Shown in pieces: positions 21,901 to 55,343 of a stretch of 64,000 bases of DNA. This DNA comes from Verrucomicrobiota bacterium (GTDB lineage: Bacteria; Verrucomicrobiota; Verrucomicrobiia; CAIQCK01). Position 1 is the stretch's first letter. Every line of letters starts with the position of its first letter. The stretch lies in NCBI GenBank assembly GCA_026397915.1, contig JAPLTX010000044.1:22779-86778 (forward strand), read 5' to 3'. Under the pieces are notes generated by a model, which saw only the letters and a program-made list of their open reading frames with translations, searched no databases and had not been told where the DNA came from. A program made the translations under genes and the position numbers.

Positions 21901-22043
21901 CGTTGTCCAGCTTACCGATGCCGGCGCCGCCTGCCAATAGAGAAAATGAGGCGGCTGGAGAACATCACGGCAGACTCATGGGCGGTTTCAACAGGTTCCA
22001 CTGCCGGCAAAAGATGTGAACGAGGAATGGAAGGTGCCGCCAA

Positions 22044-22156
22044 CCTGGGAGCGCGGGCATCCGCCCGCTTGGGCATGCAAACCACGATGGCTTCTCTTCG
22101 TGTTGCGGCACTGTCGAATAACCACCGAAGGCGGGCAGGATGCCCGCGCTCCCAGG
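22044..22156. repeat. REP-like inverted pair (CCTGGGAGCGCGGGCATCC-GCCCGC ... GCGGGCAGGATGCCCGCGCTCCCAGG)
   Basis: About 25-bp terminal inverted repeats, each internally palindromic; intergenic. Confidence 0.8.
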
Positions 22157-22169
22157 CCGCAGACACGCG

Positions 22170-22673
22170 CTACGACTGTCCCGTCAGCGACAAAAACTCC
22201 GGCAGGCGCCGCATACTGTTGAAATCTTCTTCCTCGCACGCAAGCCGGCGATACGCGGCTTCCTTTCTGACGGCTTTCTCCAGCAAACGCAGCGCCTCCT
22301 CGTGCTGGCCTTGCACGGCGCGGTAACACGCCATGTTATAATTGGCCAGCGGATGGTCGGCGCGCAAGCGCCGCGCGTGTTCCAACGCTTCGATGGCCGC
22401 ATCCAGCGACTTCGTTCGCCGCCGGCAATACGCAAGCTGAATCCAGCCGTCCACGTTCTTCGGCTGCGCGGCGAGCAGCTTTTCAAACCAAGGCTCCGCG
22501 TCGGCGTAGCGGTGCGCGCAGAGCAGAATAAACGCCCTCGCGCTGATACCGTCCTCGTGATCGGGTTGTTGCGCCAGCAGCGCGTCCACCTCCGCCAGCG
22601 CGTCGTCGTGCATGCCGAGCGCAGCGTAGCCTTCCGCTGCCTCCAAGTGTTTCCGAATCTCAATGTTGTCCAC
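22170..22673 (-). CDS. TPR-repeat protein
   Basis: LEAAEGYAALGM..., GWIQLAYC, ANYNMACY TPR units; start uncertain (22673 or 22703). Confidence 0.8.
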   Translation of the reverse strand: MDNIEIRKHLEAAEGYAALGMHDDALAEVDALLAQQPDHEDGISARAFILLCAHRYADAEPWFEKLLAAQPKNVDGWIQLAYCRRRTKSLDAAIEALEHARRLRADHPLANYNMACYRAVQGQHEEALRLLEKAVRKEAAYRRLACEEEDFNSMRRLPEFLSLTGQS

Positions 22674-22766
22674 GTTGAGTATTTCAACTGTTTCACGGAA
22701 CAAACTCCAGCCGGATATCGGAGCGAGGAGTTGTTCCCTTGTGTGTTCTTCGTCGCCAGCCAGTGC

Positions 22767-22794
22767 TTGACCGTGTCGTTTGCGGCGTTAGACT
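22767..22794 (+). promoter_or_regulatory. Putative promoter TTGACC-N16-TAGACT upstream of kinase gene 1
   Basis: Same hexamers and spacing recur upstream of kinase gene 4. Confidence 0.55.
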
Positions 22795-22814
22795 GCGCGA
22801 CAAAGGAGCCGGCC

Positions 22815-25800
22815 TTGACTAATCTTGAGGGTCAGACATTCGCGGGATACGAGGTTCTCAGCAAGCTGGGCGAAGGCGGCATGGGAGCGGTCTATAAGGC
22901 CCGCCAGCCGATGCTCAACCGCCTCGTCGCACTCAAGGTGATGTCATCCCACCTCGGCGCAGATCCCAGCTTCGTCGCCCGTTTCGTTCGCGAGGCTTCC
23001 GCCGCCGCCAACCTCAACCATCCCAACATGGTGCAGGTCTATACCGCCGGCGAAGCCGACGGCGTTCACTTTATCGCGATGGAGTTCGTCGAGGGCGAGT
23101 CGCTCCAAAAACGCCTGCACCGGCTCGGACGCATCGAGCCGCGCGAAGCCGTTGCCATCACCGTCTATGTGGCCCAAGCCCTTCAGTATGCATGGAACAA
23201 GGCCCATCTCATCCACCGCGACATCAAGCCCGACAACGTCTTCCTCTCCAATTCCGGCGAGGTGAAGGTGGGCGACCTCGGTCTGGCCAAGAGCGTTGGT
23301 GGCGAAACCACCGAGTTGACGCAGACCGGCACGGCGATGGGTTCGCCGCACTACATCAGCCCGGAGCAGGCCACAGGGTTGAAGGACGTGGATTTCCGCA
23401 CCGACATCTACAGCTTGGGCTGCACTCTCTACCACATGTTGACGGGCAAGACGCCCTATAGTGGCGACAGTTCGATGGCGGTCATGATGAAGCACGTCAA
23501 CGACCCGCCGCCGGCGATTTTCAAGACGTGGCCGGGGTGCCCGATGCCGATGGGGATGTTGGTGGGCAAGATGCTGGCCAAGGACCGCAACGCGCGGCCT
23601 CAGAGCTACGAGCAGTTGGTTGATGACCTGCTGGCGGTCCACGAGAAAATCAAAAACATGGAATCCGTGCGCGCCGTGGCAGTGACGCCCGCGGCAGCGC
23701 AACCAAAGAGCGTGACACCAGCCTCCGGCGCAAAGGCGGCAAGAAGCTTCGCGCCGCCGGCGATGAAAGAGACGGTCGCCGCCCCGTCGCCCGGAAACCG
23801 GAAGCTGATCTACGCCGCTGCTGGACTTGCAGCCGTCGCGGCGATTGCGGGCGCGGCGTGGTGGTTTGTTGGCCGACCGTCTCCGCGCGGCGAGGAGCCG
23901 GCGATAGCGACGACCGGTCAGGCACCCGCAGCGCTGCCTCTAGCCGTGGACACCGCCACCCCTCGCGAAACCGCCGTCGCACCGCCAATGGCATCCGCCT
24001 GGCTGCCGCTGGACATTGCCACGGCATGCAACGCCGATATCATCAGCACCGCTGAGCGCCAATCGTCGGACCAGTTCACATTCAACGGCGGAAGATTGGC
24101 CAGCACCAGTTGGCTGCGCAAGAACGGCCATCCCGAACCGGGGCTTCCCGACGACGGGCGTGTGCAGATCCCGGATACGCCGCCGCCGGGGTTTTTCCAA
24201 GTGCGAACGCCGCCGGCCAAGAACGCCATGCTCCTCTCCGGTCCGGAGGGCTGCCAGCCGCAGCCGGTCACCGTTGAATTGACCGCTGGCGAGCGCGGCC
24301 GTTACTCGGAACTGGTTATTTTGCACACTACGTGCCACGGCAATGGAACTCTGCGTGTCTTGCTCCGCTACGAAACGGGCTTGGAGACAACCGTCTCCAT
24401 GCCTGTGTTTGACTGGAGTCCCCGTGGGCGAACTGGCCCGTTGCCCGCCGATCTCCGTGTCGCTGCCACTTCGCGCGACACCTATCCGGGGGGAGTCCGA
24501 ATCGCAGAGATGTTTGCCCAGCGAATTCCCGCCGACCCGCTGCGGACGTTACGTTCTCTGACCTTCTCGTTTGATTCGCTAACGCCGGCAAAAGGGGTTT
24601 CAGAACGGGATGCTCGCAGTCATTTCACCGTCGGCATCTTCGCCATCAGCGCGTTGCCGGCAGCCGGGCCTGCATCCCCTGTCGCAGACACCACCGCTCG
24701 CGAAGCCGCTCCAACTCCGACGAAGTTCGGCACGCTTTTTGACGGCCGCGACACGTTGGCATGGCAGAGGAGCGACGGCGGGCCATGCGATTGGCGGGTG
24801 GAGGCCGGCGCGTTGGTGGCCGGCGCAACCGATCTCGATACGCGGGAGAAGTTCCAGGACTTCGAATTGCACGTCGAGTTCGCCTGCCCTCAGGACCGTA
24901 AGCAGGGCAACAGCGGCGTCTATATCCAGGGCCGTTACGAACTGCAGATTCTGGAATCCTTTGGCAAGCCGGCGACGGACGGTTCCTGCGGCGCGATTTT
25001 CAAGCTCAAGGCGCCGACTGAGAATGCGAGCAAACCGCCGGACGAATGGCAGACGTTCGACATCAGCTTCCGTGCCGCTCGCTTCGACGCCGCCGGGGCG
25101 AAGACCGCCAACGCCCGCCTGAGCGTTGTGCACAATGACGCAACTATTCATCGCGATGTTGAGATCGCTCGCAACACCGGCAAGGGGGAGGAGGAAAGCG
25201 CCGCACCCGGCCCGATCCGTTTGCAAGGCTACGGTAGTCCCGTGCGCTTCCGCAACATCCGCATCAAGCCGATGGGAACCACTGCAACTGCCATGACCGC
25301 TTCCGCCGCCACCGCATCGAAGCAACTCGGCTCGGTCTTCACCAATGCTGTCGGCGCGGAGATGGTCTATATCCCGCCCGGCGAGTTACTGATGGGCAGC
25401 ACGAAGGAGGAGCGCGAATGGGCAGTCATGCCAGGAAACATGGGCGTGCGTGGTTCCGCCCTCAAGCGCGTGGGATTGGAAGGGGAGCGGCAGCCGCGGC
25501 AGGCGACGCTTCGCAGCGGTTTCTGGATGGGCCGCACGAAGGTGACTGTTGGACAATGGCGCAAGTTTGCGGATGCAACCAGCTACCGAACTATGGCCGA
25601 GACAAAGGGCGTGGCCATGGCACACGAAAGGGTCAACCACAGTTGTGGGCAAGTTCAAGGCGCGAGTTGGAGCAACTTGGGATTCAGCAACCCCGTTCAG
25701 GATAACTATCCCGCTGTGTGCATCAGTTGGGAAGATGCCACGGCGTTCTGCAAATGGTTGACTGAGCGCGAGCGTGAGGCTGGGCGGTTGCCGGCCGGAT

Positions 25801-27446
25801 GCATGATGCGGCTGCCCACCGAAGCGGAATGGGAATATGCGTGTCGCGGCGGCAAACCAGGCACCAAGTTTTGGTGGGGTGATTCCAAGGAAGATGGCGA
25901 GGGTCGGCTCAATTGGAGCAAGCCCATGAATGCTGATGACGGGCTGGTAACCGTGGACCAATTTGGCGAGCGAGGCCGGAATGAATTCGGTCTGGCCGAT
26001 ATGGCAGGCAACGCATGGGATTGGTGCCTTGATAATCTCGACCCCGCAGGTCCGCACACTGAGCTTTACATGGACGATTCGTCCATGCGCGTCCTCAAGG
26101 GTGGTGACTTTGCGTCCATGCCGCAAGCCAACCGATGCGCCGCGCGTGACGGGAGACCCGCGGACACAGCTGATTTCCGATATGGGTTTCGAGTGTGTTG
26201 CGGCGTGGATGTGTCCGGCAAAGAAGCGGGCACAGGAACAGTGCTGCCGCTTGCCGAATGGAAGAGCCTCATCCCACTTATTGATCCCAAGCGCGATGGC
26301 ATCGCTGGCGGCTGGAAGGTGGAACACGGCAGGCTTTATTGCACTAAGCGCACCCCTTGGTCCCTCTGCGAACTGCCCGTAGATTATAGGGGCGGCAACT
26401 ATGATCTCCGCTTCCGCGTCACACGTGGCGATGGGCGGGACGTTGCCATCTTCTTCCTCTTCCGTAAGGGCATCACAGGGGGAACTGTGCTGTTTGACTA
26501 CTTCAACATCAATGACTTGCTGGTTGCCAAGGGTGTCAAGGTCGCAGGACTCACAAATGTGAAAGGGAAACCGGCCCCCCGCAATGAAACCCGGAGAGAA
26601 CGGCCCTCGTGGCTGCCCAAGGGGCAGGAGAAAGCTGTGCTCATCCAAGTGCGCGACGAAGGTATGGTTGTCACCTTGGATGGGGAGGAAGTGTTCCGTT
26701 GGGAAGGAAACTGGGAGGACGTGACGCAACATGAGAACATGGTTCTTTCGGAGAATAAAATTACCCGTCCAGTATTTGGCGTTAGTCCCCACGACTGCGA
26801 AGCCGTTTTCAGTGCCATCGAAATGCGGGAAATCGCTGGCAAGGGCGAGTTCACACGCTTTGGCGCGAATGACGCCTTCGTCCGGGAAGTCGCCGCGCTG
26901 CCGGCGGAGCAGCAGGTCGCGCGCGTCGTGGCGGAGTTGAAGAAGCTCAACCCCGACTTCGATGGCAAAGAGAAGCACAAGATCGAGGGGAGTGACGTTA
27001 GCGAGTTGGAAATCTCGGCGCTGAACGTGACCGACATCTCGCCGGTGCGCGCGTTGACCAAGCTGCGGCGGTTCGTGTGCATCGCCTCCACCGACGGCAA
27101 GAAGCGATCCAAGCTCTGCGATCTGACGCCGCTGCAAGGTTTGTCGCTGACAGAACTGCGGGTGCCTGGCTGTGACGTCAGCGATCTGTCGCCAGTGGCC
27201 GGGATGCCGCTGAGCCATCTGGGAATCGGCCACACGCGGGTCAGCGACCTGTCGCCGCTCAAAGGCGCACCGCTGGACACTCTCATGGCCCAAGGCGTTC
27301 CATTGCAGGACTTGTCTCCGTTACGGGGCGCGCCGTTAACGACGATCTGGTGCGATGAAGCCGTGGCCGCGACTCCGGCAAACCGGGGAATCCTGAAATC
27401 CATTTCGACTCTCAAGACGATCAAGAGCGGCCGCGCCGCGCAGTAG
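22815..27446 (+). CDS. Transmembrane Ser/Thr protein kinase 1: kinase-TM-unknown beta domain-DUF1080-FGE-sulfatase-module Y-LRR
   Basis: TTG start after SD AAGGAG; GEGGMGAVY, VALK, HRDIKPDN, DLG; TM near 23805-23870; GNSGVY/FRNIRIK (DUF1080); RLPTEAEWEYACR (FGE); DLSPLxG repeats. Confidence 0.9.
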   Translation: MTNLEGQTFAGYEVLSKLGEGGMGAVYKARQPMLNRLVALKVMSSHLGADPSFVARFVREASAAANLNHPNMVQVYTAGEADGVHFIAMEFVEGESLQKRLHRLGRIEPREAVAITVYVAQALQYAWNKAHLIHRDIKPDNVFLSNSGEVKVGDLGLAKSVGGETTELTQTGTAMGSPHYISPEQATGLKDVDFRTDIYSLGCTLYHMLTGKTPYSGDSSMAVMMKHVNDPPPAIFKTWPGCPMPMGMLVGKMLAKDRNARPQSYEQLVDDLLAVHEKIKNMESVRAVAVTPAAAQPKSVTPASGAKAARSFAPPAMKETVAAPSPGNRKLIYAAAGLAAVAAIAGAAWWFVGRPSPRGEEPAIATTGQAPAALPLAVDTATPRETAVAPPMASAWLPLDIATACNADIISTAERQSSDQFTFNGGRLASTSWLRKNGHPEPGLPDDGRVQIPDTPPPGFFQVRTPPAKNAMLLSGPEGCQPQPVTVELTAGERGRYSELVILHTTCHGNGTLRVLLRYETGLETTVSMPVFDWSPRGRTGPLPADLRVAATSRDTYPGGVRIAEMFAQRIPADPLRTLRSLTFSFDSLTPAKGVSERDARSHFTVGIFAISALPAAGPASPVADTTAREAAPTPTKFGTLFDGRDTLAWQRSDGGPCDWRVEAGALVAGATDLDTREKFQDFELHVEFACPQDRKQGNSGVYIQGRYELQILESFGKPATDGSCGAIFKLKAPTENASKPPDEWQTFDISFRAARFDAAGAKTANARLSVVHNDATIHRDVEIARNTGKGEEESAAPGPIRLQGYGSPVRFRNIRIKPMGTTATAMTASAATASKQLGSVFTNAVGAEMVYIPPGELLMGSTKEEREWAVMPGNMGVRGSALKRVGLEGERQPRQATLRSGFWMGRTKVTVGQWRKFADATSYRTMAETKGVAMAHERVNHSCGQVQGASWSNLGFSNPVQDNYPAVCISWEDATAFCKWLTEREREAGRLPAGCMMRLPTEAEWEYACRGGKPGTKFWWGDSKEDGEGRLNWSKPMNADDGLVTVDQFGERGRNEFGLADMAGNAWDWCLDNLDPAGPHTELYMDDSSMRVLKGGDFASMPQANRCAARDGRPADTADFRYGFRVCCGVDVSGKEAGTGTVLPLAEWKSLIPLIDPKRDGIAGGWKVEHGRLYCTKRTPWSLCELPVDYRGGNYDLRFRVTRGDGRDVAIFFLFRKGITGGTVLFDYFNINDLLVAKGVKVAGLTNVKGKPAPRNETRRERPSWLPKGQEKAVLIQVRDEGMVVTLDGEEVFRWEGNWEDVTQHENMVLSENKITRPVFGVSPHDCEAVFSAIEMREIAGKGEFTRFGANDAFVREVAALPAEQQVARVVAELKKLNPDFDGKEKHKIEGSDVSELEISALNVTDISPVRALTKLRRFVCIASTDGKKRSKLCDLTPLQGLSLTELRVPGCDVSDLSPVAGMPLSHLGIGHTRVSDLSPLKGAPLDTLMAQGVPLQDLSPLRGAPLTTIWCDEAVAATPANRGILKSISTLKTIKSGRAAQ

Positions 27447-27468
27447 CGTGTCAACCACAACCACGGTC

Positions 27469-28395
27469 ATGACCAATCTCGAAGGCCAAACATTCGCCGG
27501 TTACGAAATCCTCTCCAAACTCGGCCAGGGCGGGATGGGCGCGGTCTATAAAGCCCGCCAGCCGATGCTGGACCGGCTCGTGGCGCTCAAGGTGATCTCT
27601 CCGAGTGTCGCAGGGAATCCGGATTTCATTGCCCGCTTCCGGCGTGAGGCAACGGCGGCGGCGCAACTCAATCACCCGAACATCGTGCAACTCTACAGCG
27701 CTGGCGAGAGCGAGGGCGTCCACTTCATGGCGTGTGAGTTCATTGATGGCGAATCCCTCCAAGGCAAGCTCGACCGCCGCGGTCGTCTCGATCCACGCGA
27801 AACGCTGGCAGTTTGCGTCTTTGTTTGCGAGGCGCTCAAATACGCATGGGCGACCGCGAAGCTGATTCACCGGGACATCAAGCCTGACAACATCTTTCTC
27901 TCCAAAGAAGGCGATGTGAAGGTCGGCGACTTCGGCCTCGCCAAGCGCCTCGGCAGCGACGCGAGCGGCCTGACCAAAACCGGCACCACGATGGAGTCGC
28001 CGCATTACATGAGTCCCGAACAAGCGCTTGGCCACAAGGACCTCGATTTCCGTTGCGACACCTACAGCGTCGGCTGCACGCTGTATCACATGCTGGCCGG
28101 AGCGGTTCCCTACAACAGCAAGAATGTTGTCGAAGTGATGACGCAACATTGTTACGGCCCGTTGCCAGCCATTGCACAGGCTGTGCCCGGTTGCCCGGCG
28201 GTGTTGGTATTGCTTGTCAACAGAATGCTCGCGAAAAACCGCGATGAGCGCCATGCGAGCCATGACGACCTGATCGCCCACCTGTTGGAAGTGCGCGAGC
28301 AGATTCGCGCGCCACAGAACTCCATCGCCTGCGCGCCCGCTGTCGGTCCAGCCCGGCTGACACCGCACGTGGTAAAACCGGGTTCGCCGCCATGA
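27469..28395 (+). CDS. Stand-alone cytoplasmic Ser/Thr protein kinase
   Basis: MTNLEGQTFAGYE start; GQGGMG, VALK, HRDIKPDN, DFG, YMSPEQ; no TM or sensor domain. Confidence 0.9.
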   Translation: MTNLEGQTFAGYEILSKLGQGGMGAVYKARQPMLDRLVALKVISPSVAGNPDFIARFRREATAAAQLNHPNIVQLYSAGESEGVHFMACEFIDGESLQGKLDRRGRLDPRETLAVCVFVCEALKYAWATAKLIHRDIKPDNIFLSKEGDVKVGDFGLAKRLGSDASGLTKTGTTMESPHYMSPEQALGHKDLDFRCDTYSVGCTLYHMLAGAVPYNSKNVVEVMTQHCYGPLPAIAQAVPGCPAVLVLLVNRMLAKNRDERHASHDDLIAHLLEVREQIRAPQNSIACAPAVGPARLTPHVVKPGSPP

Positions 28396-31300
28396 CCAAT
28401 CTCGAAGGCAAACCGTTCGCCGGTTACGAGGTCGTCGCCAAACTTGGCGACGGCGACTTGGGCGCTGTCTATAAGGCCCGCCAGCCGAAGCCTGACCGGG
28501 TCGTCGTGCTCAAACTTCTCGAACCGCGTCTCGCGGGCGATGCGGAATTCCTCAAGCGTTTCAAGCGCGAGGCGGCGGCCGCCGCGGATCTCGGCCACCC
28601 AAACCTCATGCAGGTGTATGGCGCCGGCGAACACCAAGGCATCCACTACGTGGCCACGGAGTTTGCCGAGGGTGACACGTTGGGCAAGCGGCTCGCGCGG
28701 CGCGGCCGGTTGGAACCGCGCGAAGCCCTGGCCATCACGTTTTACGTGGTGCGTGCGCTGCTCTACGCATGGAGCAAGGCGAAACTCGCTCATCTCAATA
28801 TCCGGCCGGAGAGCATCTTCTTGCGGAAGGCCGGCGATGTGAAGCTGGATGGTCTTGGCATGGCAAAGCCGGCGGCCACAGCGGCGTCAAGGTTGCCGCA
28901 CTACACTAGTCCGGAACAGGCGCAGGCGGCGGGCGAGATTGATTTCCGTGCCGACATCTACAGCCTTGGTTGCGTCCTCTATCACATGCTCGCCGGCAAG
29001 ACGCCTTACGAGGGCGACAACGCGAAGGCGCTGTTGGCGAAGCGCGTCAGCGAGCCGCCGCCGGACATCACCAAAGTCTGGCCGACATGCCCAGCTTCGT
29101 TGGGCCGGTTGTTGGGGAGAATGATGGCCAGGCAGACTGCCGACCGGCACCGCAACTATGACGACCTGATCAAGGAACTGCTGGAGGTGCGCGAGGAAGT
29201 CAAACAGGCAACGCGGCAACGAACCGCGATCCCGGCGAAAAGCGAAAGCCGCACTTTCGCAGGCTATACGCTCCTCGCCAAGCTGAGCCAGGACGACAGC
29301 AGCGCGGTGTATAAAGCGTATCAGCCGTCGCCAAAGCGTCTCGTTGCGCTCAAGGTGCTGGCATCGCGACTCAGCAAGAACTCCGAGTTCGTCGCCCGCT
29401 TCAAACGCGGGACCGCCGCTGCTGCCGGCCTCAATCATCCGAACATCGTGCAGGTTTACAGCGCCGGCGAGGCGGACGGCGCTTGCTACGTCGCGCTCGA
29501 ATTTGTCGAGGGCCGGACGCTGCGCCAACGGCTGGAGCGGCGCGGTCAACTGCATCCGCGCGAAGCCCTCGCCATTACGTTCTATGTGGCCCAGGCACTC
29601 GAGCACGCCTGGAACAAAGCAAAGCTGGCGCACGGCGGACTCACGCCCGACAACATCGTTCTAACCGGCTCCGGCGAGGTGAAGGTTGGCGATTTTGGCA
29701 CGGCCAAAATTCTGGAAGAAGCGCAAGGCACGGCGGCATCCGCGAAAGCGGAGGTGCCCGGCTCGCTGTATTACATGAGTCCCGAGCAAGGGCGTGGCGT
29801 GAAGGAACTCGATTGTCGCGCCGACATTTACAGCCTCGGCTGCATGCTCTACCACATACTTACCGGCAAGACGCCCTATGATGGCGATACTCCAGCGGCC
29901 ATTGCGAAGAAGCACGTGAACGATCCGCCACCGGCGATTCTCAAGGCGTGGCCGACTTGTCCGGCCATGCTCGCCCGGTTGATGGACAAAATGCTGGCCA
30001 AATCGCGCCGCGACCGGCCGCAGAGCTACGACGATCTGCTCACCGAAATGGTGAAGGTGCGCGAGGAGTTCAAGCGCGTGAAAGTTGCTCCCCCGGCAGC
30101 GCCGGGCGCGACAGCACCCATCCCTGCCGAGCCATCAAAAGCCAAACAGACTGAAAACGAGAGCGCCGCCGAACCGGTCGCTTGGAACCGGTCGCCGATC
30201 TTCATTGGTGCTGGAATCGCCGCGGTGGTTTTGCTGGGAGGCTTGCTCGTCTGGGCGCCTTGGAAGAAACCTGCGATCCAGTCTTCGCCGCAGGAAGAGC
30301 AGCGTGTTGATGATTCCTCTCCGCGCGTCACGCCGTTCGCGCAAACTCCGACACCGCGCCGCGAGGTTGCGCGCGCCACGATCAGATCGGATACGACGAC
30401 GGCCTATACTCCGCCAGCTTCCAAACCATGGCAGCCTGAGCCGAAGCCTATGACGACTCCCATCGCGCCACCGGAGCCGCCGCCAGCTCCGGCAGCCGGT
30501 GACACGAAAGCGCCGGAAGCGCCAGCCGACAATCCCATGGCTCCTCGCGCGACCCTGGCCAGAGTCGGGAGCAAGGAGATTGTGCTCGATATGCCTTCAA
30601 GCGCCGTTCCCAGCGAGCAGCCGATGACCGACGAGGCGTTTGCAGCCGCAGTAGCCCCGCTGCCGCCACAGGAACAGGTTAAGAGAGTCATCGCCAGGCT
30701 TCAGGAACTCAATCCCGGTTTCAGTGGCAAGGGGAGCTACAAGATCGAAAACAATGTTGTGGCGGAACTGACAATCTCGACAACAGGCTCATTGGTTCCA
30801 ACGGTGGGCGTGACCGACATGACGCCCATAAAGACGCTGAAAAGCCTCCAGCGTCTCGTGCTCGCGCCAGCCAAACCCGGCGAGCAGGGCGCGCTGGCTG
30901 ATTTGTCGGCGCTGAGCGGCATGACGCTGACGTGGCTGTCCTGCCACGGTAACCCGCAACTTCAGGACCTGTCGCCGCTGAAAGACATGCCGCTGACCGG
31001 ACTGACTTGCGGCGGGACGCTCGTGAAAGACCTCACGCCGCTCAGTGCCATGCGCCTGGCCACCCTGGGCATCAACGACACGCCGGTCGAAGACATCTCC
31101 GCGTTGAACGGAATGCCGCTCGCGGTGTTGTGGTGCCAGAACAGCAAGGTCGCCGATCTTACTCCGCTGAAAGGCGCGCCGCTGCGTGAGCTGCGCTGCG
31201 ATTTCATGATGGTGCGCGACGGCCCCGTTCTGCGCGACATCCGAACGCTCGCCAGGATCAACGACCTGCCGGCGGCGACGTTCTGGAAGCGCGCCAACCT

Positions 31301-31880
31301 GGCCACGGCGGCACCTTCAACCGTCCTGAGCGCGGTGAAGGCGGCACCCGACTTCAAGTCGTTATTCAACGGCAAAGACATGACCGGTTGGCGGGCGCGG
31401 ACCCCGAGCCTGCCAGACGGCTGGCGCGTGCGTCGCGGCACGATGATCAACACCCCGCCCAGCTCCGATATCGTGTCGGCGCAACAGTTCGACAACTTCG
31501 AGTTCTACTGCGAATACAAAACCTCTCGTCGCTGCCATAGCGGCGTGCTCCTGCGCGGTCGCTACCGCATCCCGATTCTGAACGACGCAGGTCAGCCACC
31601 GTCCGTCACCTGTAGCGGCAGCGTTCATGAGTTGCTTGCGCCCACCAAGAATGCGAGCAAGCCGCCCGACACTTGGCAGGCGCTCTATGTGAGGCTCGTC
31701 GGCAGCACCGTGACGGTCATTCTCAACGGCAAGAAGGTGATTGACGGACGCGGGCTGGACGAATCAAGCGGCTCTTTCGGCGGAGACGTGGTCAAATCCG
31801 GCCCCATCCTTCTGATGGGTGGCAGCAGTGTCATTTTCCGGAACCTCCGCATTAAGCCGCTGCTTGCGAAAGAGAACTAG
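28392..31880 (+). CDS. Transmembrane protein with two tandem pseudokinase domains, LRR and DUF1080
   Basis: Catalytic loops HLNIRPES (28791) and HGGLTPDN (29631) lack the catalytic Asp; TM near 30200-30263; DLSPLKDMPL LRRs; C-terminal DUF1080. Confidence 0.88.
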   Translation: MTNLEGKPFAGYEVVAKLGDGDLGAVYKARQPKPDRVVVLKLLEPRLAGDAEFLKRFKREAAAAADLGHPNLMQVYGAGEHQGIHYVATEFAEGDTLGKRLARRGRLEPREALAITFYVVRALLYAWSKAKLAHLNIRPESIFLRKAGDVKLDGLGMAKPAATAASRLPHYTSPEQAQAAGEIDFRADIYSLGCVLYHMLAGKTPYEGDNAKALLAKRVSEPPPDITKVWPTCPASLGRLLGRMMARQTADRHRNYDDLIKELLEVREEVKQATRQRTAIPAKSESRTFAGYTLLAKLSQDDSSAVYKAYQPSPKRLVALKVLASRLSKNSEFVARFKRGTAAAAGLNHPNIVQVYSAGEADGACYVALEFVEGRTLRQRLERRGQLHPREALAITFYVAQALEHAWNKAKLAHGGLTPDNIVLTGSGEVKVGDFGTAKILEEAQGTAASAKAEVPGSLYYMSPEQGRGVKELDCRADIYSLGCMLYHILTGKTPYDGDTPAAIAKKHVNDPPPAILKAWPTCPAMLARLMDKMLAKSRRDRPQSYDDLLTEMVKVREEFKRVKVAPPAAPGATAPIPAEPSKAKQTENESAAEPVAWNRSPIFIGAGIAAVVLLGGLLVWAPWKKPAIQSSPQEEQRVDDSSPRVTPFAQTPTPRREVARATIRSDTTTAYTPPASKPWQPEPKPMTTPIAPPEPPPAPAAGDTKAPEAPADNPMAPRATLARVGSKEIVLDMPSSAVPSEQPMTDEAFAAAVAPLPPQEQVKRVIARLQELNPGFSGKGSYKIENNVVAELTISTTGSLVPTVGVTDMTPIKTLKSLQRLVLAPAKPGEQGALADLSALSGMTLTWLSCHGNPQLQDLSPLKDMPLTGLTCGGTLVKDLTPLSAMRLATLGINDTPVEDISALNGMPLAVLWCQNSKVADLTPLKGAPLRELRCDFMMVRDGPVLRDIRTLARINDLPAATFWKRANLATAAPSTVLSAVKAAPDFKSLFNGKDMTGWRARTPSLPDGWRVRRGTMINTPPSSDIVSAQQFDNFEFYCEYKTSRRCHSGVLLRGRYRIPILNDAGQPPSVTCSGSVHELLAPTKNASKPPDTWQALYVRLVGSTVTVILNGKKVIDGRGLDESSGSFGGDVVKSGPILLMGGSSVIFRNLRIKPLLAKEN

Positions 31881-31945
31881 ACTATCAACTGTCGCGACAT
31901 TCGCATCAAACCATCGTCCTCGAAATGAAACAAGATAGGCCAACC

Positions 31946-31973
31946 TTGACCGACCACCTTGCTTTGCTAGACT
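31946..31973 (+). promoter_or_regulatory. Putative promoter TTGACC-N16-TAGACT upstream of kinase gene 4
   Basis: Identical hexamers and spacing to 22767-22794; TGn extended -10. Confidence 0.55.
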
Positions 31974-31998
31974 GCTCGTCCCAAGAGAGCGGGCTGCC

Positions 31999-34900
31999 AT
32001 GAGTGATCTTACGGGCCAAACATTTGCCGGTTACGAAATTCTTGCCAAGCTCGGCGAAGGCGGAATGGGGGCGGTCTATAAAGCGCGCCAGCCGACGCTC
32101 AACCGTCTCGTCGCATTGAAGGTCATGGCGTCCCAGCTCAGCAGCGATTCCATGTTCGTCTCCCGCTTCAGGCGCGAGGCCAACGCCGCCGCCGCCCTCA
32201 ATCATGAGAACATCGTGCAGGTCTTTACTGCCGGCGAATCCGACGGCACCCACTACATCGCAATGGAGTTTGTCGAAGGCAAGACGCTCCGCGACCACAT
32301 TGACAGCCACGGCAAACTTGACCCGCGCGAGGCCATTGCCATTACCGTCTATGTAGCCACAGCCCTCCAATACGCCTGGAGCAAGGCCAAGCTCATTCAC
32401 CGCGACATCAAGCCGGAGAACATCTTCCTCTCCAACACCGGCGAGGTGAAAGTGGGAGACCTCGGTCTCGCGAAAACCGTCGGCGGGGCAACGACGAACC
32501 TGACGCAGACCGGCATGATGATGGGCAGCCCGCACTACATCAGTCCGGAGCAGGCACGCGGCGCCGCCGACATTGATTTCCGGACGGACATCTACAGTCT
32601 TGGCTGCACGCTTTACCACATGCTAACGGGCCGGCCGCCCTACAGTGGCAGCGATCCGCTGGTGGTCATCACCAAGCACGTCAACGATCCGCCGCCGGCG
32701 ATCTTCAAGGTCTGGTCGTCGTGCCCGGTGCCGCTGGGGATGCTGGTGGGCAAGATGCTGGCCAAGAACCGGAACGACCGTTTCGCGAGCTACGAGGAAT
32801 TGATCGCGGAGATGATCCGCGTGCGGGAGAAACTTGCGCCGGTAGTGAGCGCGCCGCCCGCCAGCGCCAGCGAGCCGACGAAGGTGGCTGCGGCAACGCC
32901 AAAGCCCGCTGTTGCAAAGACGCCAAAGCCCGCTCCGGCGGCAAAGCCGGGGTTGGCGATTCGTAATTGGAAACTGGTAATGGGTGGTGTGGCGGCGGTC
33001 GCGCTGATCGCAGGCGCGGTGTGGTGGTTTGCAGGCCGCGCATCCTCACCCGATGGTGTTGCGCTTCCTGAAGGATATAGGCCGATTTTCAACGGCAAAG
33101 ACTTGTCAGGCTGGAAAGTGCGGGACGCGGGCAAATACAACGCGTGGACCGCGCAGGATGGCGTGCTGGTCAACACTCAGGCCGGCACCGACCTCATCAC
33201 GGAGGAGCAGTTCACCGACTTCCTGTTTCACTGCGAGTTCAAGATTCCTCCCGGCGGCAACAGCGGCGTCTATCTGCGGGGGCGATACGAGATCCAAATC
33301 TACGACGACTTCGGCCAGCCGTCCGGCGGGCAGACCAGCGGCGGCATTTTCAAGGTGATTACGCCGAGCGAGAACGCGAGCAAGCCGGCGGGCGAGTGGC
33401 AATCGTTGTCCGCCGGAATTCGCGGCAAGCACGTAGAAGTGGTTCTCAACGGCAAGAAAGTCATTGATTACGGCGAGTTGACCAAGCCCACAGGCGATGC
33501 GCTCGACAAGAACGTGGATCAGCCCGGCCCGATCATGCTGCAAGGCCGCTATGGCCGCGTCGAGTTTCGCAACATTCGCACCAAGCCGCTGACCGGCCTG
33601 GCTCCTTCCGCGCCTGACGCCGTCTTCCTCCGCGAAGTCGCCGCGCTGTCGGCGGAGCAGCAAGTCAAGCGCGTCGTGGCGAAGCTGAAGGAACTGAATC
33701 CCGACTTTGATCCGTCCCAAGCGACGATTGACTCGGAAGTGAAGGACGGCCAGGTGTCCATGTTCAAGCTCCTCAGCGCCTGGAAACTGACGGACCTGTC
33801 GCCGGTCCGCGCCTTGTCAGGGCTGAAATGGCTCGAACTCGGCGAGGCGAAGGCTGCCGATCTGACACCGCTGAAAGGCTTGCGACTGGAACGCTTTTTA
33901 CTCCACCACATGGACGAAGTGAGCGACCTCTCGCCATTGCAAGGAATGCCGCTGAAATACTTGCTTCTCGAAGCCGGACGGATCACCGATTTGAACCCGC
34001 TCAAAGGGATGCCGCTGGAGACACTCCATGTCTCAAGCAGACAAGTGAGCGACGTCTCGCCGCTATCGGGCATGACGACGTTAAGAAGTCTGAGGTTACA
34101 CAACGTGTCGGTCAGCAATTTGTCGCCGCTCAAAGGCCTGGGCTTGGCCAGCCTGCACGTGGGGCAAGCGAAGGTCAGCGACCTCTCGCCGTTGCGAGAC
34201 ATGCCGTTGAAATCCCTCGAATGCGAACCCGACCTGCTCGCGCGCGAGCCGAACCGGACCATCGTGCGGTCCATCGCCACGCTCCAGACGATCAACAAGC
34301 TGCCGGCAGCGGAGTTTTGGAAACAGGTGGACGCGGGCAAACTGCCTGACGCCGCGCCGGCAAGCGCCGCACAGCCCGGCGAAACGAAGCTCCTGGACCT
34401 CGGCGGCGGCGTGAAGATGGAACTCGTGTCCATCCCTCCCGGCGAGCTCATGCTCGGCAGCACGAAGGAGGAGCAGGCGTGGGCAGTGGCCAACGGCGCG
34501 ATGGAAAACTATGTGAAGCACGAGGGAGAAGCGCCGCGTAAGGCGGTGATCAAACATGGGTTCTGGATGGGCCGGACGGAGGTGACAGTGGGCCAATGGA
34601 AGCAGTTCGTCGCCGCAACGGGATATAAGAGCGAGGCGGAAAAGAAGGGCTTCGTGGATTACGCCCTACGGAAAGGACAATCGCGGGGTCGTGTGGACGG
34701 ATTGAGTTGGCGTGACCAGGGGCTTGGCTCGCCGCCGCAAGACAATCATCCGGTGTCCTGCGTGAGTTGGAACGACGCGGTGGCGTTTTGCCAATGGGCG
34801 ACGGAGCGCGAGCGCAAAGCGGGGCGGATCGCGGCGGGCCAGATGATTCGGCTGCCGACGGAGGCGGAGTGGGAGTATGCGTGCCGTGCCGGGGCCCAGA

Positions 34901-36717
34901 CGAGATTCTGGTGGGGCGATGCGAAGGAGGACGGCAAGGGCCGGTTGAACTTGAGTGAGAAGAACGACGGGTATGAGTTCATGGCGCCGGCGGATGCGTT
35001 TGGAGCGCGAGGACGGAACGGGTTTGGGTTGGCGGACATGTTGGGCAATGTTGATGAGTGGTGTCTGGATGAATTCGATGCGACGGGGGCACACGAAGAC
35101 TTGTGGACGGGCAATCCCGGCACGCGGGTGTTGCGGGGCGGGGCATTCCGCCGCAATCTCGCCGTTGCTCGGTGTGCCTACCGCTACAGTTTCGGTCCGT
35201 CCATCTCGGATGACGAACACGGCTTTCGGGTCTGTCTCGGCCCGGACGTGCTCGGCGCTGCGCCTGCCTCCGCAACTCCGACAGACCTGCCGAAGGAAAC
35301 CTCCCTCGACCTCGGCGGCGGCGTGAAGATGGAACTCGCCCTCGTTCCAGCGGGCGAGTTCATCATGGGATCGAACGACGGCCCTGGCTACGAGAAACCC
35401 GTTCACAAGGTGCGAATCAGCGCCCCGTTCTACATGGGCAAGTATGAGGTCACCATCACTCAGTTCAAACGATTCGTCGCCGAGACGCAGTATCAGACCG
35501 AAGCGGAGAGGTTCAATAACGGCTGGATGCCCACCAATGGCAGATGGGGACCCGTGCCCGGCGTAAACTGGAGAACGCCGGTTCAATTCACCCAGGTGGA
35601 TGATCATCCGGTCTGTGTGGTGTCATGGAACGACATCCAGGAATTCTGCAAATGGGCATCGAAACAAACTGGCAGGATCGTGCGTTTGCCGACGGAAGCA
35701 CAATGGGAATACGCCTGCCGGGCCGGCACGACCACGAAGTTCAACACGACCGACAAGGACTCGGAATTGGGAGAAGCCGCTTGGTTTGCAGCGAATTCCG
35801 GTCAACGCACGCACCCGGTGGGGCAGAAGAAACCCAATGCGTGGGGACTTTATGACATGCACGGCAATCTGTATGAGATGGTGCAGGATTTCTACAGCGA
35901 CAAGTATGATGTGGAACAGTTCGTGGTTGATCCCCAAGGTTCGACCACAGGTGGCGGGCGCCAGATGCGCGGTGGTGGCTGGGGAAATAATCCGGCCAGT
36001 GTCCGTTCAGCCTGCCGCAAGAAGATCGGTCTCGATGAAGCCAGCATCGGCAATGGTTTCCGAGTCGTCACCGATGCGCTGCCAGCCACCGGCTCCGTTG
36101 CCTCAACGTCGAGCGCCACTGGCGACGCCGCGTGGCAGAACACCATCAACCTGTTGCTGTTGGTGGACCTTTCACAGGATGTGAACTCAGGCAAGTGGGA
36201 GGCCGCCCCTGATGGGCTGAAGGCTACCGACATCAAGAGCATGTCGCAAAAAATTCAGCCGCCTTACCGTCCGCCGGAGGAGTATGACTACCGCGTCAGC
36301 TTCACACCAATGTCCGGCAACGCGGATGTCGCTATCGGGTTGACAGCCAGGGGCCGATCGTTCGTTTTCTACATGAAGAAATTCGCCAACGACCACTGCC
36401 TCGGCTTCGAGGCCATCGGCGGCAAAGCGATTGCCGCCGGTCCGACGGCGCATCGTTTCCCCCATCTGGAAATGGGGAGCCGATACACCGTGGTGGTGGA
36501 GGTGCGCAAGAACGGTCTGCGCGGCTACCTCGACGACAAGCTCGTGGCCGAGTGGTCCACGGACTACAGCGACATGACCGCATGGCCCGTCTGGAAATTC
36601 AAGGACGACACGCTCCCTGGATTCGGATGCAGCCTGAGCACCGTGGTGTTCCAAGAGGTCAAGTTGCGCGAAGTCGGCGGCAAAGGCACGTTCACGCGCG
36701 GTGGGTCGAAGCCGTAG
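31999..36717 (+). CDS. Transmembrane Ser/Thr protein kinase 4: kinase-TM-DUF1080-LRR-FGE-FGE-module Y
   Basis: GEGGMG, VALK, HRDIKPEN, DLG; TM VMGGVAAVALIAGAVWWF; two RLPTEAxWEYACR domains; LRRs. Confidence 0.92.
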   Translation: MSDLTGQTFAGYEILAKLGEGGMGAVYKARQPTLNRLVALKVMASQLSSDSMFVSRFRREANAAAALNHENIVQVFTAGESDGTHYIAMEFVEGKTLRDHIDSHGKLDPREAIAITVYVATALQYAWSKAKLIHRDIKPENIFLSNTGEVKVGDLGLAKTVGGATTNLTQTGMMMGSPHYISPEQARGAADIDFRTDIYSLGCTLYHMLTGRPPYSGSDPLVVITKHVNDPPPAIFKVWSSCPVPLGMLVGKMLAKNRNDRFASYEELIAEMIRVREKLAPVVSAPPASASEPTKVAAATPKPAVAKTPKPAPAAKPGLAIRNWKLVMGGVAAVALIAGAVWWFAGRASSPDGVALPEGYRPIFNGKDLSGWKVRDAGKYNAWTAQDGVLVNTQAGTDLITEEQFTDFLFHCEFKIPPGGNSGVYLRGRYEIQIYDDFGQPSGGQTSGGIFKVITPSENASKPAGEWQSLSAGIRGKHVEVVLNGKKVIDYGELTKPTGDALDKNVDQPGPIMLQGRYGRVEFRNIRTKPLTGLAPSAPDAVFLREVAALSAEQQVKRVVAKLKELNPDFDPSQATIDSEVKDGQVSMFKLLSAWKLTDLSPVRALSGLKWLELGEAKAADLTPLKGLRLERFLLHHMDEVSDLSPLQGMPLKYLLLEAGRITDLNPLKGMPLETLHVSSRQVSDVSPLSGMTTLRSLRLHNVSVSNLSPLKGLGLASLHVGQAKVSDLSPLRDMPLKSLECEPDLLAREPNRTIVRSIATLQTINKLPAAEFWKQVDAGKLPDAAPASAAQPGETKLLDLGGGVKMELVSIPPGELMLGSTKEEQAWAVANGAMENYVKHEGEAPRKAVIKHGFWMGRTEVTVGQWKQFVAATGYKSEAEKKGFVDYALRKGQSRGRVDGLSWRDQGLGSPPQDNHPVSCVSWNDAVAFCQWATERERKAGRIAAGQMIRLPTEAEWEYACRAGAQTRFWWGDAKEDGKGRLNLSEKNDGYEFMAPADAFGARGRNGFGLADMLGNVDEWCLDEFDATGAHEDLWTGNPGTRVLRGGAFRRNLAVARCAYRYSFGPSISDDEHGFRVCLGPDVLGAAPASATPTDLPKETSLDLGGGVKMELALVPAGEFIMGSNDGPGYEKPVHKVRISAPFYMGKYEVTITQFKRFVAETQYQTEAERFNNGWMPTNGRWGPVPGVNWRTPVQFTQVDDHPVCVVSWNDIQEFCKWASKQTGRIVRLPTEAQWEYACRAGTTTKFNTTDKDSELGEAAWFAANSGQRTHPVGQKKPNAWGLYDMHGNLYEMVQDFYSDKYDVEQFVVDPQGSTTGGGRQMRGGGWGNNPASVRSACRKKIGLDEASIGNGFRVVTDALPATGSVASTSSATGDAAWQNTINLLLLVDLSQDVNSGKWEAAPDGLKATDIKSMSQKIQPPYRPPEEYDYRVSFTPMSGNADVAIGLTARGRSFVFYMKKFANDHCLGFEAIGGKAIAAGPTAHRFPHLEMGSRYTVVVEVRKNGLRGYLDDKLVAEWSTDYSDMTAWPVWKFKDDTLPGFGCSLSTVVFQEVKLREVGGKGTFTRGGSKP

Positions 36718-36724
36718 TCGCGAG

Positions 36725-38518: not shown

Positions 38519-38600
38519 GATGTTTCTCCGGACCCGAACGCCATCGCATGCTGCTTGCCGCCAGCAGCGGGCGGAGGGGCGGGGTGATTGCGACTCTTGG

Positions 38601-52308: not shown

Positions 52309-52317
52309 GAGTCACAG

Positions 52318-53814: not shown

Positions 53815-53824
53815 GAGCAACTTT

Positions 53825-55315: not shown

Positions 55316-55343
55316 GGAGTGGTAGCTGCGAGAGGATTGAACC

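What the first reader, a model, noticed from the sequence alone, without database searches (positions are those of the whole stretch)
27469..31880. Soluble active kinase translationally coupled to a transmembrane double-pseudokinase receptor
Seen: gene 27469-28395 is a bare kinase domain with intact GxGxxG, VALK, HRDIKPDN and DFG and no sensor. Its stop overlaps (ATGA) the start of 28392-31880, which has two kinase folds, a TM helix, then LRR and DUF1080. Domain 1 has HLNIRPES for HRDxKPxN, GLG for DFG/DLG, and a shortened activation loop. Domain 2 has lost the Gly loop (SQDDSS) and has HGGLTPDN. Both domains otherwise stay in frame and closely follow their active paralogues, with no stops or frameshifts. 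Established: the HRD Asp is the catalytic base in Hanks kinases, and eukaryotes use pseudokinase/kinase pairs (HER3-EGFR, JAK JH2-JH1). Inference: a bacterial receptor-pseudokinase plus cytoplasmic-kinase pair, in which ligand binding outside the membrane controls the partner kinase allosterically or as a scaffold. I know of no description of this arrangement in bacteria.
Basis: partly seen in the sequence, partly recalled or inferred. Interest (0 to 1): 0.8.

Follow-up and report, generated by a model that had tools for sequence, protein, structure and literature searches.

The report
Soluble kinase beside double-pseudokinase receptor
A small active protein kinase gene overlaps the start of a membrane receptor gene carrying two degenerate kinase domains; the receptor is conserved across its genus, but the two genes lie together only in this genome, so the pairing is a recent rearrangement.

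Summary
K1 (27469-28395, 308 aa) has every catalytic motif. Its TGA overlaps the ATG (ATGA) of a 1162-aa receptor with two degenerate kinase domains (D1, D2), one TM helix, an LRR region and DUF1080. Independent metagenome contigs bridge both gene junctions without differences.

The receptor has an orthologue in 7 of 7 other genomes of the genus. D2 lacks the catalytic Asp in every copy. D1 loses different residues in different copies, and only this genome lacks its HRD Asp. Both domains are under purifying selection (dN/dS 0.11-0.30; active domains 0.05-0.16).

The pairing is not conserved. None of the 5 relatives with readable upstream DNA has K1 there. K1 belongs to a family of ~308-aa stand-alone kinases. 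In its two other known contexts it has the same ATGA overlap with an active receptor kinase. Here a 923-nt K1 segment lies between 19-nt direct repeats at the receptor's start.

Verdict: a genuine conserved bacterial double-pseudokinase receptor, joined recently to K1. A functional link between the two is untested.

The parts
22815..27446 (+). Upstream active receptor kinase paralogue (P0003): kinase, TM, DUF1080, FGE-sulfatase, LRR. The likely true start is TTG 22815, preceded by AAGGAG.
   Evidence: Motifs GEGGMG, VALK, HRDIKPDN, GDLG. The stop lies 22 nt before the K1 ATG.
27468..27486 (+). Direct repeat copy 1 (19 nt, includes the K1 ATG and codons for MTNLEG).
   Evidence: the 19-mer occurs exactly twice in the window, at 27468 and 28391; the DNA left of it aligns with the P0003-orthologue/receptor junction of G003.
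27469..28395 (+). K1: stand-alone soluble Hanks-type Ser/Thr kinase, 308 aa, all catalytic motifs intact.
   Evidence: Family of 8 clusters of 307-311 aa. One orthologue in G003, 76% identical.
28392..28395 (+). ATGA stop/start overlap between K1 and the receptor.
   Evidence: The same geometry occurs in G003:C11 and in metagenome locus L053.
28391..28409 (+). Direct repeat copy 2 (19 nt, includes the receptor ATG).
28392..31880 (+). Receptor with two degenerate kinase domains (P0002, 1162 aa).
   Evidence: Orthologues in 7 of 7 other genus genomes.
28392..29240 (+). D1: degenerate kinase domain. HLNIRPES at 28791-28814, DGLG at 28848-28859, short activation loop. Gly loop, beta-3 Lys and alpha-C Glu are kept.
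   Evidence: dN/dS 0.20-0.26. Model pLDDT about 80-95.
29241..30110 (+). D2: conserved pseudokinase domain. SQDDSS at 29286-29303, FKRGT at 29400-29414, HGGLTPDN at 29631-29654. DFG is kept.
   Evidence: dN/dS 0.11-0.30.
30198..30263 (+). Single transmembrane helix (residues 603-624).
   Evidence: Kyte-Doolittle 19-residue maximum 2.47. Conserved in orthologues.
30702..31316 (+). Extracytoplasmic leucine-rich-repeat region.
   Evidence: Weak Pfam LRR_4 hit (below cut-off) and internalin-type NCBIfam hits. 98% aa identity to G003.
31350..31856 (+). DUF1080 / 3-keto-disaccharide-hydrolase-like domain (PF06439).
   Evidence: 9.7e-32, residues 987-1155.
31999..36717 (+). Downstream active receptor kinase paralogue (P0004).

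Best explanation
This is a recent, lineage-specific joining of two separately conserved signalling genes. It lies inside a fast-rearranging cluster of PknB-like receptor kinase paralogues in a freshwater Verrucomicrobiota genome.

(1) The receptor is an old, genus-wide protein. Its two cytoplasmic kinase-fold domains arose by internal duplication. D2 is a fixed pseudokinase. D1 is losing catalytic residues in a different combination in each lineage, and here it lacks the HRD Asp, the catalytic-loop Asn and the DFG Asp. Both domains are kept by purifying selection, so they most likely work without catalysis. They would link ligand binding by the periplasmic LRR and DUF1080 modules to an active kinase, through PknB-type kinase-domain dimerisation or as a docking scaffold.

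(2) K1 belongs to a small family of stand-alone ~308-aa active kinases. In every context seen, the K1 stop overlaps the start of a receptor-type kinase gene, which is normally an active one.

(3) In this genome a 923-nt K1 segment was placed exactly at the receptor's start codon. The likely mechanism is recombination across the 5' sequence that these paralogues share.

Shown: the anatomy, the conservation, the selection and the rearrangement. Inferred: translational coupling, the non-catalytic scaffold role, and any K1-receptor cooperation.
For: Anatomy and motifs.

Receptor conservation: orthologues in 7 of 7 other genus genomes, none with internal stops.
- D2's catalytic Asp is absent in 8 of 8 genomes and 10 of 10 clusters; the two sets overlap.
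- D1: 6 of 9 full-length clusters lack at least one of beta-3 Lys, HRD Asp and DFG Asp. All 9 lack the catalytic-loop Lys and have the short activation loop.

Selection: dN/dS is 0.20-0.26 for D1 and 0.11-0.30 for D2. Active domains give 0.05 (P0003), 0.12 (P0004) and 0.16 (K1).

Tree: the D1 and D2 clades are sisters (95/85), and K1 of G000 and G003 form a separate clade (100/100).

K1 family: 8 clusters of 307-311 aa with intact motifs and a conserved C-terminal tail.

K1 contexts: the ATGA overlap with a downstream receptor-type kinase gene is seen in 3 of 3. The partner is active in G003:C11 and in L053 (GQGGMG, HRDIKPDN, GDLG) and is the degenerate receptor only here.

Absence elsewhere: no K1 upstream of the receptor in G003, G004, G001, G006 or G002 (5 of 5 readable).

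Insertion: the DNA left of K1 aligns with the P0003-orthologue/receptor junction of G003, and 19-nt direct repeats flank the 923-nt segment.

Assembly: independent contigs confirm both junctions.

Fold: both domains are predicted as kinase folds (pLDDT 80). The nearest solved structures are PknB, PknA, PknI and Stk1.

Mechanistic precedent: PknB-type dimerisation and allosteric activation (PMC6213207, passages).
Against: - No experiment or expression data bears on function.
- Only three K1 contexts are known, and the L053 contig ends inside the partner gene.
- The alternative history, an ancestral K1-receptor pair lost repeatedly by recombination between the repeats, needs more events but is not excluded.
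- Three D1 copies (P0129, P0130, P0131) keep Lys, HRD Asp and DFG Asp, so D1 may still be catalytic in some lineages.
- dN/dS comes from a simple Nei-Gojobori count on a few pairs, with dS up to about 1.
- The relative orientation of D1 and D2 in the model is not confident (pTM 0.48).
- The genomes are metagenome-assembled (G000: 62 contigs, 94% complete). Two orthologues are cut by contig ends.
Confidence: 0.6

Rival explanations
1. One reading: K1 and the receptor are a working receptor-pseudokinase plus cytoplasmic-kinase module. Ligand binding outside the membrane would control K1 allosterically or by scaffolding, and the module would be newly formed in this lineage.
For: - The ATGA overlap implies joint, roughly equimolar expression.
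- The K1 family is always found overlapping a receptor-type kinase gene (3 of 3 contexts). That suggests K1 normally acts with its downstream receptor's cytoplasmic domain.
- This genome is the only one with K1 upstream, and the only full-length copy whose D1 has lost the HRD Asp. That fits catalysis being handed over to K1.
- The receptor stays under purifying selection.
Against: - The pairing occurs in 1 of 6 genomes with a readable upstream region.
- The link between gaining K1 and losing the D1 Asp is a single case.
- D1's terminal branch is no longer here than in G003 (0.11 vs 0.11).
- The receptor persists without K1 in 5 of the 7 other genus genomes, those where no K1 orthologue was found, so it does not need K1.
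Confidence: 0.2
2. D1 and/or D2 are not dead. They keep a non-canonical activity, such as a relocated catalytic residue or another nucleotide-dependent chemistry, so the receptor is an atypical enzyme and not a scaffold.
For: - D1 keeps the Gly loop, the beta-3 Lys and the alpha-C Glu, and has an Asp one position before the usual DFG site (DGLG).
- D2 keeps the beta-3 Lys, the catalytic-loop Asn and DFG.
- Purifying selection acts on both.
- The review PMC12599244 notes that some bacterial families classed as pseudokinases keep HRD and/or DFG motifs and may use compensatory alternative mechanisms (passages).
Against: - D2 lacks the catalytic base in every copy, and its Gly loop is replaced by acidic and polar residues.
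- D1's losses differ from lineage to lineage, which is what relaxed constraint on catalysis would produce.
- Neither domain has activation-loop Thr residues.
Confidence: 0.12
3. Artefact or single gene: the two ORFs are one triple-kinase gene, split by a sequencing error or read through by programmed frameshifting.
For: The receptor's frame is open for 42 codons upstream of its ATG, so a -1 shift near the end of K1 would fuse the two.
Against: - The same ATGA geometry and frame offset recur in two other, diverged loci (76% and 80% identical K1).
- Eight database clusters end at the same place, at 307-311 aa.
- Contigs from other samples match with 0 differences and no indels.
- I did not look for a slippery site. 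Long open frames are expected at 62% GC.
Confidence: 0.03

Closest known systems
PknB-type receptor Ser/Thr kinases (M. tuberculosis PknB/PknA/PknD, S. aureus Stk1)
   Same: They are the best sequence and fold matches for the kinase domains. The layout is shared: cytoplasmic kinase, one TM helix, extracytoplasmic sensor. Regulation by kinase-domain dimers is established for them (PMC6213207, passages).
   Different: The receptor here has two kinase folds, both without canonical catalytic residues. Its sensor is LRR plus DUF1080, not PASTA.
M. tuberculosis PknI
   Same: Among solved chains, PknI is the only bacterial kinase whose best-matching stretch falls in D1 (query residues 5-242/249, E about 1e-26). 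It is also a close fold match (TMt 0.90). I recall, without having checked, that its structure was described as inactive and pseudokinase-like.
   Different: PknI has a single kinase domain. The pseudokinase-like description is recalled, not read here.
Bacterial pseudokinase families ActPs1-3 (including the MviN pseudokinase domain), GLW, CP1, DYD, DLHK (review PMC12599244)
   Same: These are bacterial Hanks-type domains with degraded catalytic motifs and proposed scaffolding roles. MviN is a membrane protein whose pseudokinase domain recruits a regulator (passages).
   Different: The review's main text has no occurrence of 'tandem', 'Verrucomicrobi' or 'Planctomycet'. CP1 and DLHK lack TM regions. 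I did not test membership of any of these families, because no models for them were available.
Eukaryotic pseudokinase-kinase systems (JAK JH2-JH1, HER3-EGFR) and plant tandem kinase proteins
   Same: A kinase fold without catalysis is placed next to, or partnered with, an active kinase. Tandem kinase/pseudokinase architecture is known in plants (search listing only).
   Different: In JAK and the plant proteins one of the tandem domains is active; here both are degenerate and the active kinase is a separate protein. The JAK hit in the fold search has rmsd 22.7 over 605 columns, so the geometry is not shared. There is no common ancestry beyond the kinase fold.
Myxococcus xanthus Pkn8 (membrane) to Pkn14 (cytoplasmic) kinase cascade
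   Same: A membrane kinase works with a soluble kinase (PMC6213207, passage). This is the nearest known functional analogue of K1 with its usual active receptor partner.
   Different: I know of no report of a stop/start gene overlap there, and I did not check. Here the membrane partner is catalytically degenerate.
Tandem two- or three-kinase-domain proteins of other bacteria (database proteins P0145 to P0240)
   Same: Several Pkinase domains lie in one bacterial polypeptide: 12 of 12 proteins checked have 2-3 domains.
   Different: All 25 of their domains keep the HRD Asp and the DFG Asp. They are about 30-35% identical to the receptor.

Membership tests
Active Hanks-type Ser/Thr kinase (applied to K1) | Pkinase fold above the Pfam cut-off | tested here: met
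   PF00069, 164.8 bits against a cut-off of 31.7.
Active Hanks-type Ser/Thr kinase (applied to K1) | Gly-rich loop, beta-3 Lys, alpha-C Glu, HRD Asp with catalytic-loop Lys and Asn, DFG Asp, activation-loop Thr | tested here: met
   GQGGMG, VALK, FRREA, HRDIKPDN, GDFG, TKTGTT. These are invariant in 8 of 8 family clusters.
Active Hanks-type Ser/Thr kinase (applied to K1) | Phosphotransfer activity | not testable with these tools
   Needs an in vitro assay.
Pseudokinase (kinase fold lacking beta-3 Lys, HRD Asp or DFG Asp), applied to D2 | Kinase fold present | tested here: met
   Pfam Pkinase at residues 294-544. pLDDT mostly 80-94. PknB E 1.5e-44.
Pseudokinase (kinase fold lacking beta-3 Lys, HRD Asp or DFG Asp), applied to D2 | Canonical catalytic residue missing, and the loss conserved in orthologues | tested here: met
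   HRD Asp is replaced by Gly or Ala in 10 of 10 clusters and 8 of 8 genomes. The Gly loop is degenerate in all.
Pseudokinase, applied to D1 | Canonical catalytic residue missing in this genome | tested here: met
   HLN for HRD, Ser for the catalytic-loop Asn, DGLG for GDLG.
Pseudokinase, applied to D1 | Loss conserved in orthologues | tested here: inconclusive
   HRD Asp is kept in 8 of 9 other clusters. At least one of Lys, HRD Asp and DFG Asp is lost in 6 of 9 full-length clusters, and 3 of 9 keep all three.
Pseudokinase, applied to D1 and D2 | Absence of catalytic activity | not testable with these tools
   Needs biochemistry.
Co-evolved receptor-pseudokinase / partner-kinase module (HER3-EGFR or JAK type) | Partners co-occur and are conserved together | tested here: not met
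   K1 lies upstream of the receptor in 1 of 6 genomes with readable context. A K1 orthologue is present in 2 of 11 genomes of the order. K1's partner elsewhere is an active receptor kinase.
Co-evolved receptor-pseudokinase / partner-kinase module (HER3-EGFR or JAK type) | Physical interaction and allosteric activation | not testable with these tools
   Needs pull-down and kinase assays. The one complex-prediction job gave no verdict and is listed under Tried and rejected.
Described bacterial pseudokinase families (ActPs1-3, GLW, CP1, DYD, DLHK) | Family-specific sequence constraints | not tested
   No profiles for these families were on hand. I read only the review's text.
Translationally coupled gene pair | Stop codon of the upstream gene overlaps the start codon of the downstream gene | tested here: met
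   ATGA at 28392-28395, recurring in G003 and L053. Coupled translation itself is inferred from general knowledge of such overlaps.

The most novel reading that the evidence does not exclude
This locus catches the birth of a bacterial receptor-pseudokinase/kinase module. The K1 family would be detachable output kinases that serve receptor-type kinases, much as JAKs serve cytokine receptors. After K1 was captured in front of the double-pseudokinase receptor, the receptor's D1 lost its last catalytic residues (HRD Asp and Asn), which are missing only in this lineage. Catalysis would then have moved to the co-translated partner, leaving the receptor as a pure ligand-gated scaffold.
Probability: 0.15. 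Interest if true: 0.75.

Novelty: new variant of a known kind. Interest (0 to 1): 0.45.

Why it matters
Bacterial pseudokinases are recognised but almost unstudied experimentally (PMC12599244, abstract). This clade offers three useful things.

- A membrane receptor with two tandem degenerate kinase domains, conserved across a genus and under purifying selection.
- D1, which shows stepwise, lineage-specific loss of catalytic residues. That is a natural series for asking how a kinase becomes a pseudokinase.
- K1, a small family of stand-alone kinases whose gene always overlaps the start of a receptor-type kinase gene. That suggests a two-protein kinase relay in Verrucomicrobiota.

The finding is less striking than proposed, because the kinase/pseudokinase pairing occurs in a single genome.

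Tried and rejected
- Complex prediction of K1 against the D1-D2 region (alignments A4, and A3 residues 1-575): 'no answer', scores 0.01 and 0.18 against a mark of 0.32, controls not folded. This is no evidence either way.
- Genome-contig scan with the K1 alignment: the patterns were too general. All 80 loci were distant kinases (35-49% identical) and none was a K1 orthologue.
- Metagenome-contig scan with K1: 1 of 80 loci was a K1 orthologue (L053, 80% identical). The rest were paralogues or distant kinases.
- A G000 orthologue of the G003 partner receptor (RX): tblastn gave at best 65% identity over the first 656 residues (C12:153850), so there is no clear orthologue. I did not examine the DNA upstream of that gene.
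- Promoter and terminator scan of 21500-37500: counts equal the shuffle expectation (3 vs 2.9; 16 vs 16.1), so it is not evidence for an operon.
- RNA evidence: no RNA holder was listed. Expression and co-transcription remain unknown.
- JAK-like JH2-JH1 geometry: the JAK hit has rmsd 22.7, and the model's inter-domain confidence is low (pTM 0.48). Rejected as uninformative.
- Joints (for example 27510 to 28452, skipping 941 with 18 letters between, net 923) have sides of 24 letters at 90% likeness. They may come from a related organism without K1. I treat them as a hint only.
So I could not read the genomic contexts of K1 clusters P0007-P0012 or of receptor clusters P0127-P0133.
- Literature searches found no description of a bacterial tandem-pseudokinase receptor or of this pairing: plus term searches inside PMC12599244 and bioRxiv 10.1101/2025.01.12.632604. 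Of that preprint I saw only the listing and one passage. Supplements were closed and may list such families. Kwon et al. 2019 (pseudokinases across the tree of life) is not in the library; I recall it only.

Full report
WHAT IS THERE. The window is G000:C23:22779-86778, from a 6.17-Mb, 62-contig, 94%-complete assembly. Sources name its closest relatives as Verrucomicrobiia/Verrucomicrobiota MAGs. Four kinase-family genes lie head to tail on the + strand.
- P0003: ORF 22140-27446, with a likely true start at TTG 22815 behind AAGGAG.
- K1: 27469-28395.
- The receptor P0002: 28392-31880.
- P0004: 31999-36717.
Pfam finds one Pkinase domain in K1 and nothing else. In the receptor it finds two Pkinase stretches plus PF06439 (DUF1080). 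In the two flanking proteins it finds Pkinase plus DUF1080 and FGE-sulfatase. The K1 stop and the receptor start overlap as ATGA.

MOTIFS. An alignment of the five kinase domains and an HMM-based motif table show K1 with every canonical element: GQGGMG, VALK, alpha-C Glu, HRDIKPDN, GDFG and activation-loop Thr residues. D1 has HLNIRPES, DGLG and a 9-residue shorter activation loop, but it keeps GDGDLG, VVLK and FKRE. D2 has SQDDSS, FKRG and HGGLTPDN, and keeps VALK and GDFG. A TM helix lies at residues 603-624.

IS IT AN ERROR? No. The same ATGA overlap and frame offset occur at the end of the K1 orthologue in G003:C11 (76% identical) and in metagenome contig L053 (80% identical). Eight database clusters of this kinase end at 307-311 aa with a conserved C-terminal tail. 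Logan contigs of runs X4 and X5 come from samples not flagged as the source, although from the same two studies as the flagged samples. They cover both junctions with 0 differences, and no indels are listed. X7, from a third study, bridges the P0003/K1 junction.

THE RECEPTOR IS CONSERVED. A search of 41 genomes found an orthologue in 7 of 7 other genomes of the genus (57-78% identity, no internal stops). Two of these are cut by contig ends, and outside the genus there were only partial or paralogous matches. D2's catalytic Asp is replaced in all 8 genomes (HRA, HCA, HGA or HGG) and the catalytic-loop Lys is absent. The same holds for 10 of 10 database clusters, which overlap with these genomes.

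D1 is a mosaic.
- All 9 full-length clusters lack the catalytic-loop Lys and share the short activation loop.
- The beta-3 Lys is lost in 5 of the 9.
- The DFG Asp is lost in 6 of the 9.
- The catalytic-loop Asn is lost in 4 of the 9.
- The HRD Asp is lost only in this genome.
- Three clusters keep Lys, HRD Asp and DFG Asp.

Nei-Gojobori dN/dS is 0.20-0.26 for D1 and 0.11-0.30 for D2 across 6-7 pairs. The kinase domains of P0003, P0004 and K1 give 0.05, 0.12 and 0.16. So both degenerate domains are under purifying selection, somewhat relaxed, and are not decaying. In a maximum-likelihood tree of 41 kinase domains the D1 and D2 clades are sisters (95/85), which points to an internal duplication before the genus diversified. 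K1 of G000 and G003 form their own clade (100/100). AlphaFold2 models both domains as kinase folds (mean pLDDT 80) without a confident mutual orientation (pTM 0.48). The nearest solved structures are PknB, PknA, PknI and Stk1.

THE PAIRING IS NOT CONSERVED. Upstream DNA is readable in five relatives. In G003 the receptor follows directly on the P0003 orthologue. In G002 it follows another receptor kinase. In G001, G004 and G006 no kinase ORF lies upstream on that strand. None of the five has K1 there. K1 has one orthologue among the 11 genomes of the order, in G003; the next best hits are at most 60% identical and sit in ORFs of 989 aa or more. That G003 orthologue lies on another contig. It overlaps by ATGA a 1310-aa receptor kinase with intact GQGGMG, HRDIKPDN and GDLG, followed by FGE-sulfatase-, DUF1080- and LRR-like regions as judged by similarity to the window's paralogues. 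L053 shows the same arrangement, again with an active-looking partner. G000 has no clear orthologue of that partner (best 65%).

At the nucleotide level, the DNA left of K1 in G000 comprises the P0003 3' end, a 22-nt spacer and the first 18 nt of the ORF. It aligns with the P0003-orthologue/receptor junction of G003. The sequence then switches to K1-like, and the 19-mer that includes the ATG occurs at 27468 and again at 28391, flanking a 923-nt segment. The simplest history is insertion of K1 at the receptor's start by recombination across the 5' sequence shared by these paralogues.

HOW IT LIKELY WORKS. Shown: an active-looking soluble kinase and a doubly degenerate receptor are encoded with overlapping stop and start codons, and the receptor is selectively maintained. 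Inferred from established PknB biology (N-lobe back-to-back and asymmetric front-to-front dimers that activate partner kinase domains; PMC6213207, passages): the receptor's kinase folds act as non-catalytic dimerisation or docking surfaces. They would pass ligand occupancy of the LRR/DUF1080 ectodomain to an active kinase. In most species that kinase must be one of the many paralogous receptor kinases. G000 has 27 kinase-like domains in 26 ORFs, and 21 of them have all four key residues. In this genome K1 is an obvious additional candidate, because it is co-encoded with the receptor. K1's usual association with an active receptor kinase resembles the Pkn8 (membrane) to Pkn14 (soluble) cascade of Myxococcus (PMC6213207). 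I put about 0.6 on the overall reading (old pseudokinase receptor, recent K1 capture), about 0.2 on a truly functional K1-receptor module, about 0.12 on residual non-canonical catalysis, and about 0.03 on artefact.

COMPARISON AND NOVELTY. Bacterial pseudokinase families have been catalogued (ActPs1-3 including MviN, GLW, CP1, DYD, DLHK; PMC12599244: outline, passages and section 10 read). Neither that review nor the bacterial STK atlas preprint (passages only) contains 'tandem', 'Verrucomicrobi' or 'Planctomycet' in the main text. Searches for tandem kinase plus pseudokinase plus bacteria returned plant tandem-kinase papers. A search for Verrucomicrobia plus threonine kinase plus DUF1080 returned nothing. 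Tandem kinase-domain proteins do exist in other bacteria: 12 of 12 database proteins checked have 2-3 domains. All 25 of those domains keep the HRD and DFG Asp. The doubly degenerate, membrane-anchored form therefore looks like a new variant of a known kind. It is not a new category, and the specific kinase/pseudokinase pairing is a single-genome event.

CAVEATS.
- All genomes are MAGs.
- Kin are few and related.
- dN/dS is a simple estimate.
- The tree is midpoint-rooted.
- K1 contexts number three.
- Paper supplements were closed.

Noticed in passing
window 29241-29480 (N-lobe of D2): G000's D2 is placed outside all other D2 copies in the tree, although its D1 groups with G003. Its first ~80 residues are as similar to active paralogues (0.53-0.65) as to its own orthologues (0.50-0.62), whereas G003's D2 is 0.42-0.49 to the paralogues. 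This could be partial gene conversion from a paralogue or retained ancestral states; no clear donor was found.
   Followed up: partly
G000:C14:47565-50315 (outside the window): A second degenerate receptor: a single kinase domain with HRAIKPSN (catalytic Asp to Ala) in a 917-aa ORF. ORFs of similar length (904-916 aa) match in G001, G004, G005 and G006. Two further divergent kinase-like domains (C58, C56:43937) and one with beta-3 Lys replaced by Arg (C50) are also in the genome.
   Followed up: partly
window 22767-22794 and 31946-31973: The same promoter-like pattern (TTGACC, 16 nt, TAGACT) precedes the likely start of P0003 and the start of P0004. None precedes K1 or the receptor. The total count equals chance, so this is only a hint that P0003, K1 and the receptor form one transcription unit.
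   Followed up: no
window 22140-22814: The mechanical ORF of P0003 starts 225 codons too early. The extension looks non-coding, and similar sequence lies upstream of the receptor in G001. The likely start is TTG 22815, behind AAGGAG.
   Followed up: partly
window 30702-31316 (LRR region): The LRR region is 98% identical in protein between G000 and G003, with dN/dS 0.05 and dS 0.28. The neighbouring domains of the same gene are 69-82% identical. This suggests unusually strong constraint or a recent exchange of this segment.
   Followed up: no
window 27510-28452, runs X4 and X6: Contigs join 27510 to 28452 with 18 other letters between, a net loss of 923 nt, which is exactly the K1 segment. The sides are only 24 letters at 90% likeness, so a related K1-less organism in the same waters is the likely source.
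   Followed up: no
K1 versus flanking genes, G000-G003: Synonymous divergence of K1 between G000 and G003 (dS 0.92) exceeds that of the P0003 kinase domain (0.29), D1 (0.40) and the P0004 kinase domain (0.58). This fits the two K1 copies having a history separate from the locus they now sit in.
   Followed up: no
window 50803-56858: Three paralogous genes with the DMFA2_C domain (about 500 aa each) are interleaved with an alpha-L-fucosidase gene. Nearby are GFO/IDH/MocA oxidoreductases and a BNR/CBM9 protein at 36725-38626 on the minus strand. This is a carbohydrate-use neighbourhood.
   Followed up: no
database proteins P0145, P0174, P0177, P0188, P0190, P0201, P0212, P0230, P0231, P0236, P0238, P0240: Bacterial proteins from other phyla carry two or three tandem Pkinase domains, mostly with intact catalytic motifs. 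The two bacterial kinome papers I searched do not contain the word 'tandem'.
   Followed up: partly
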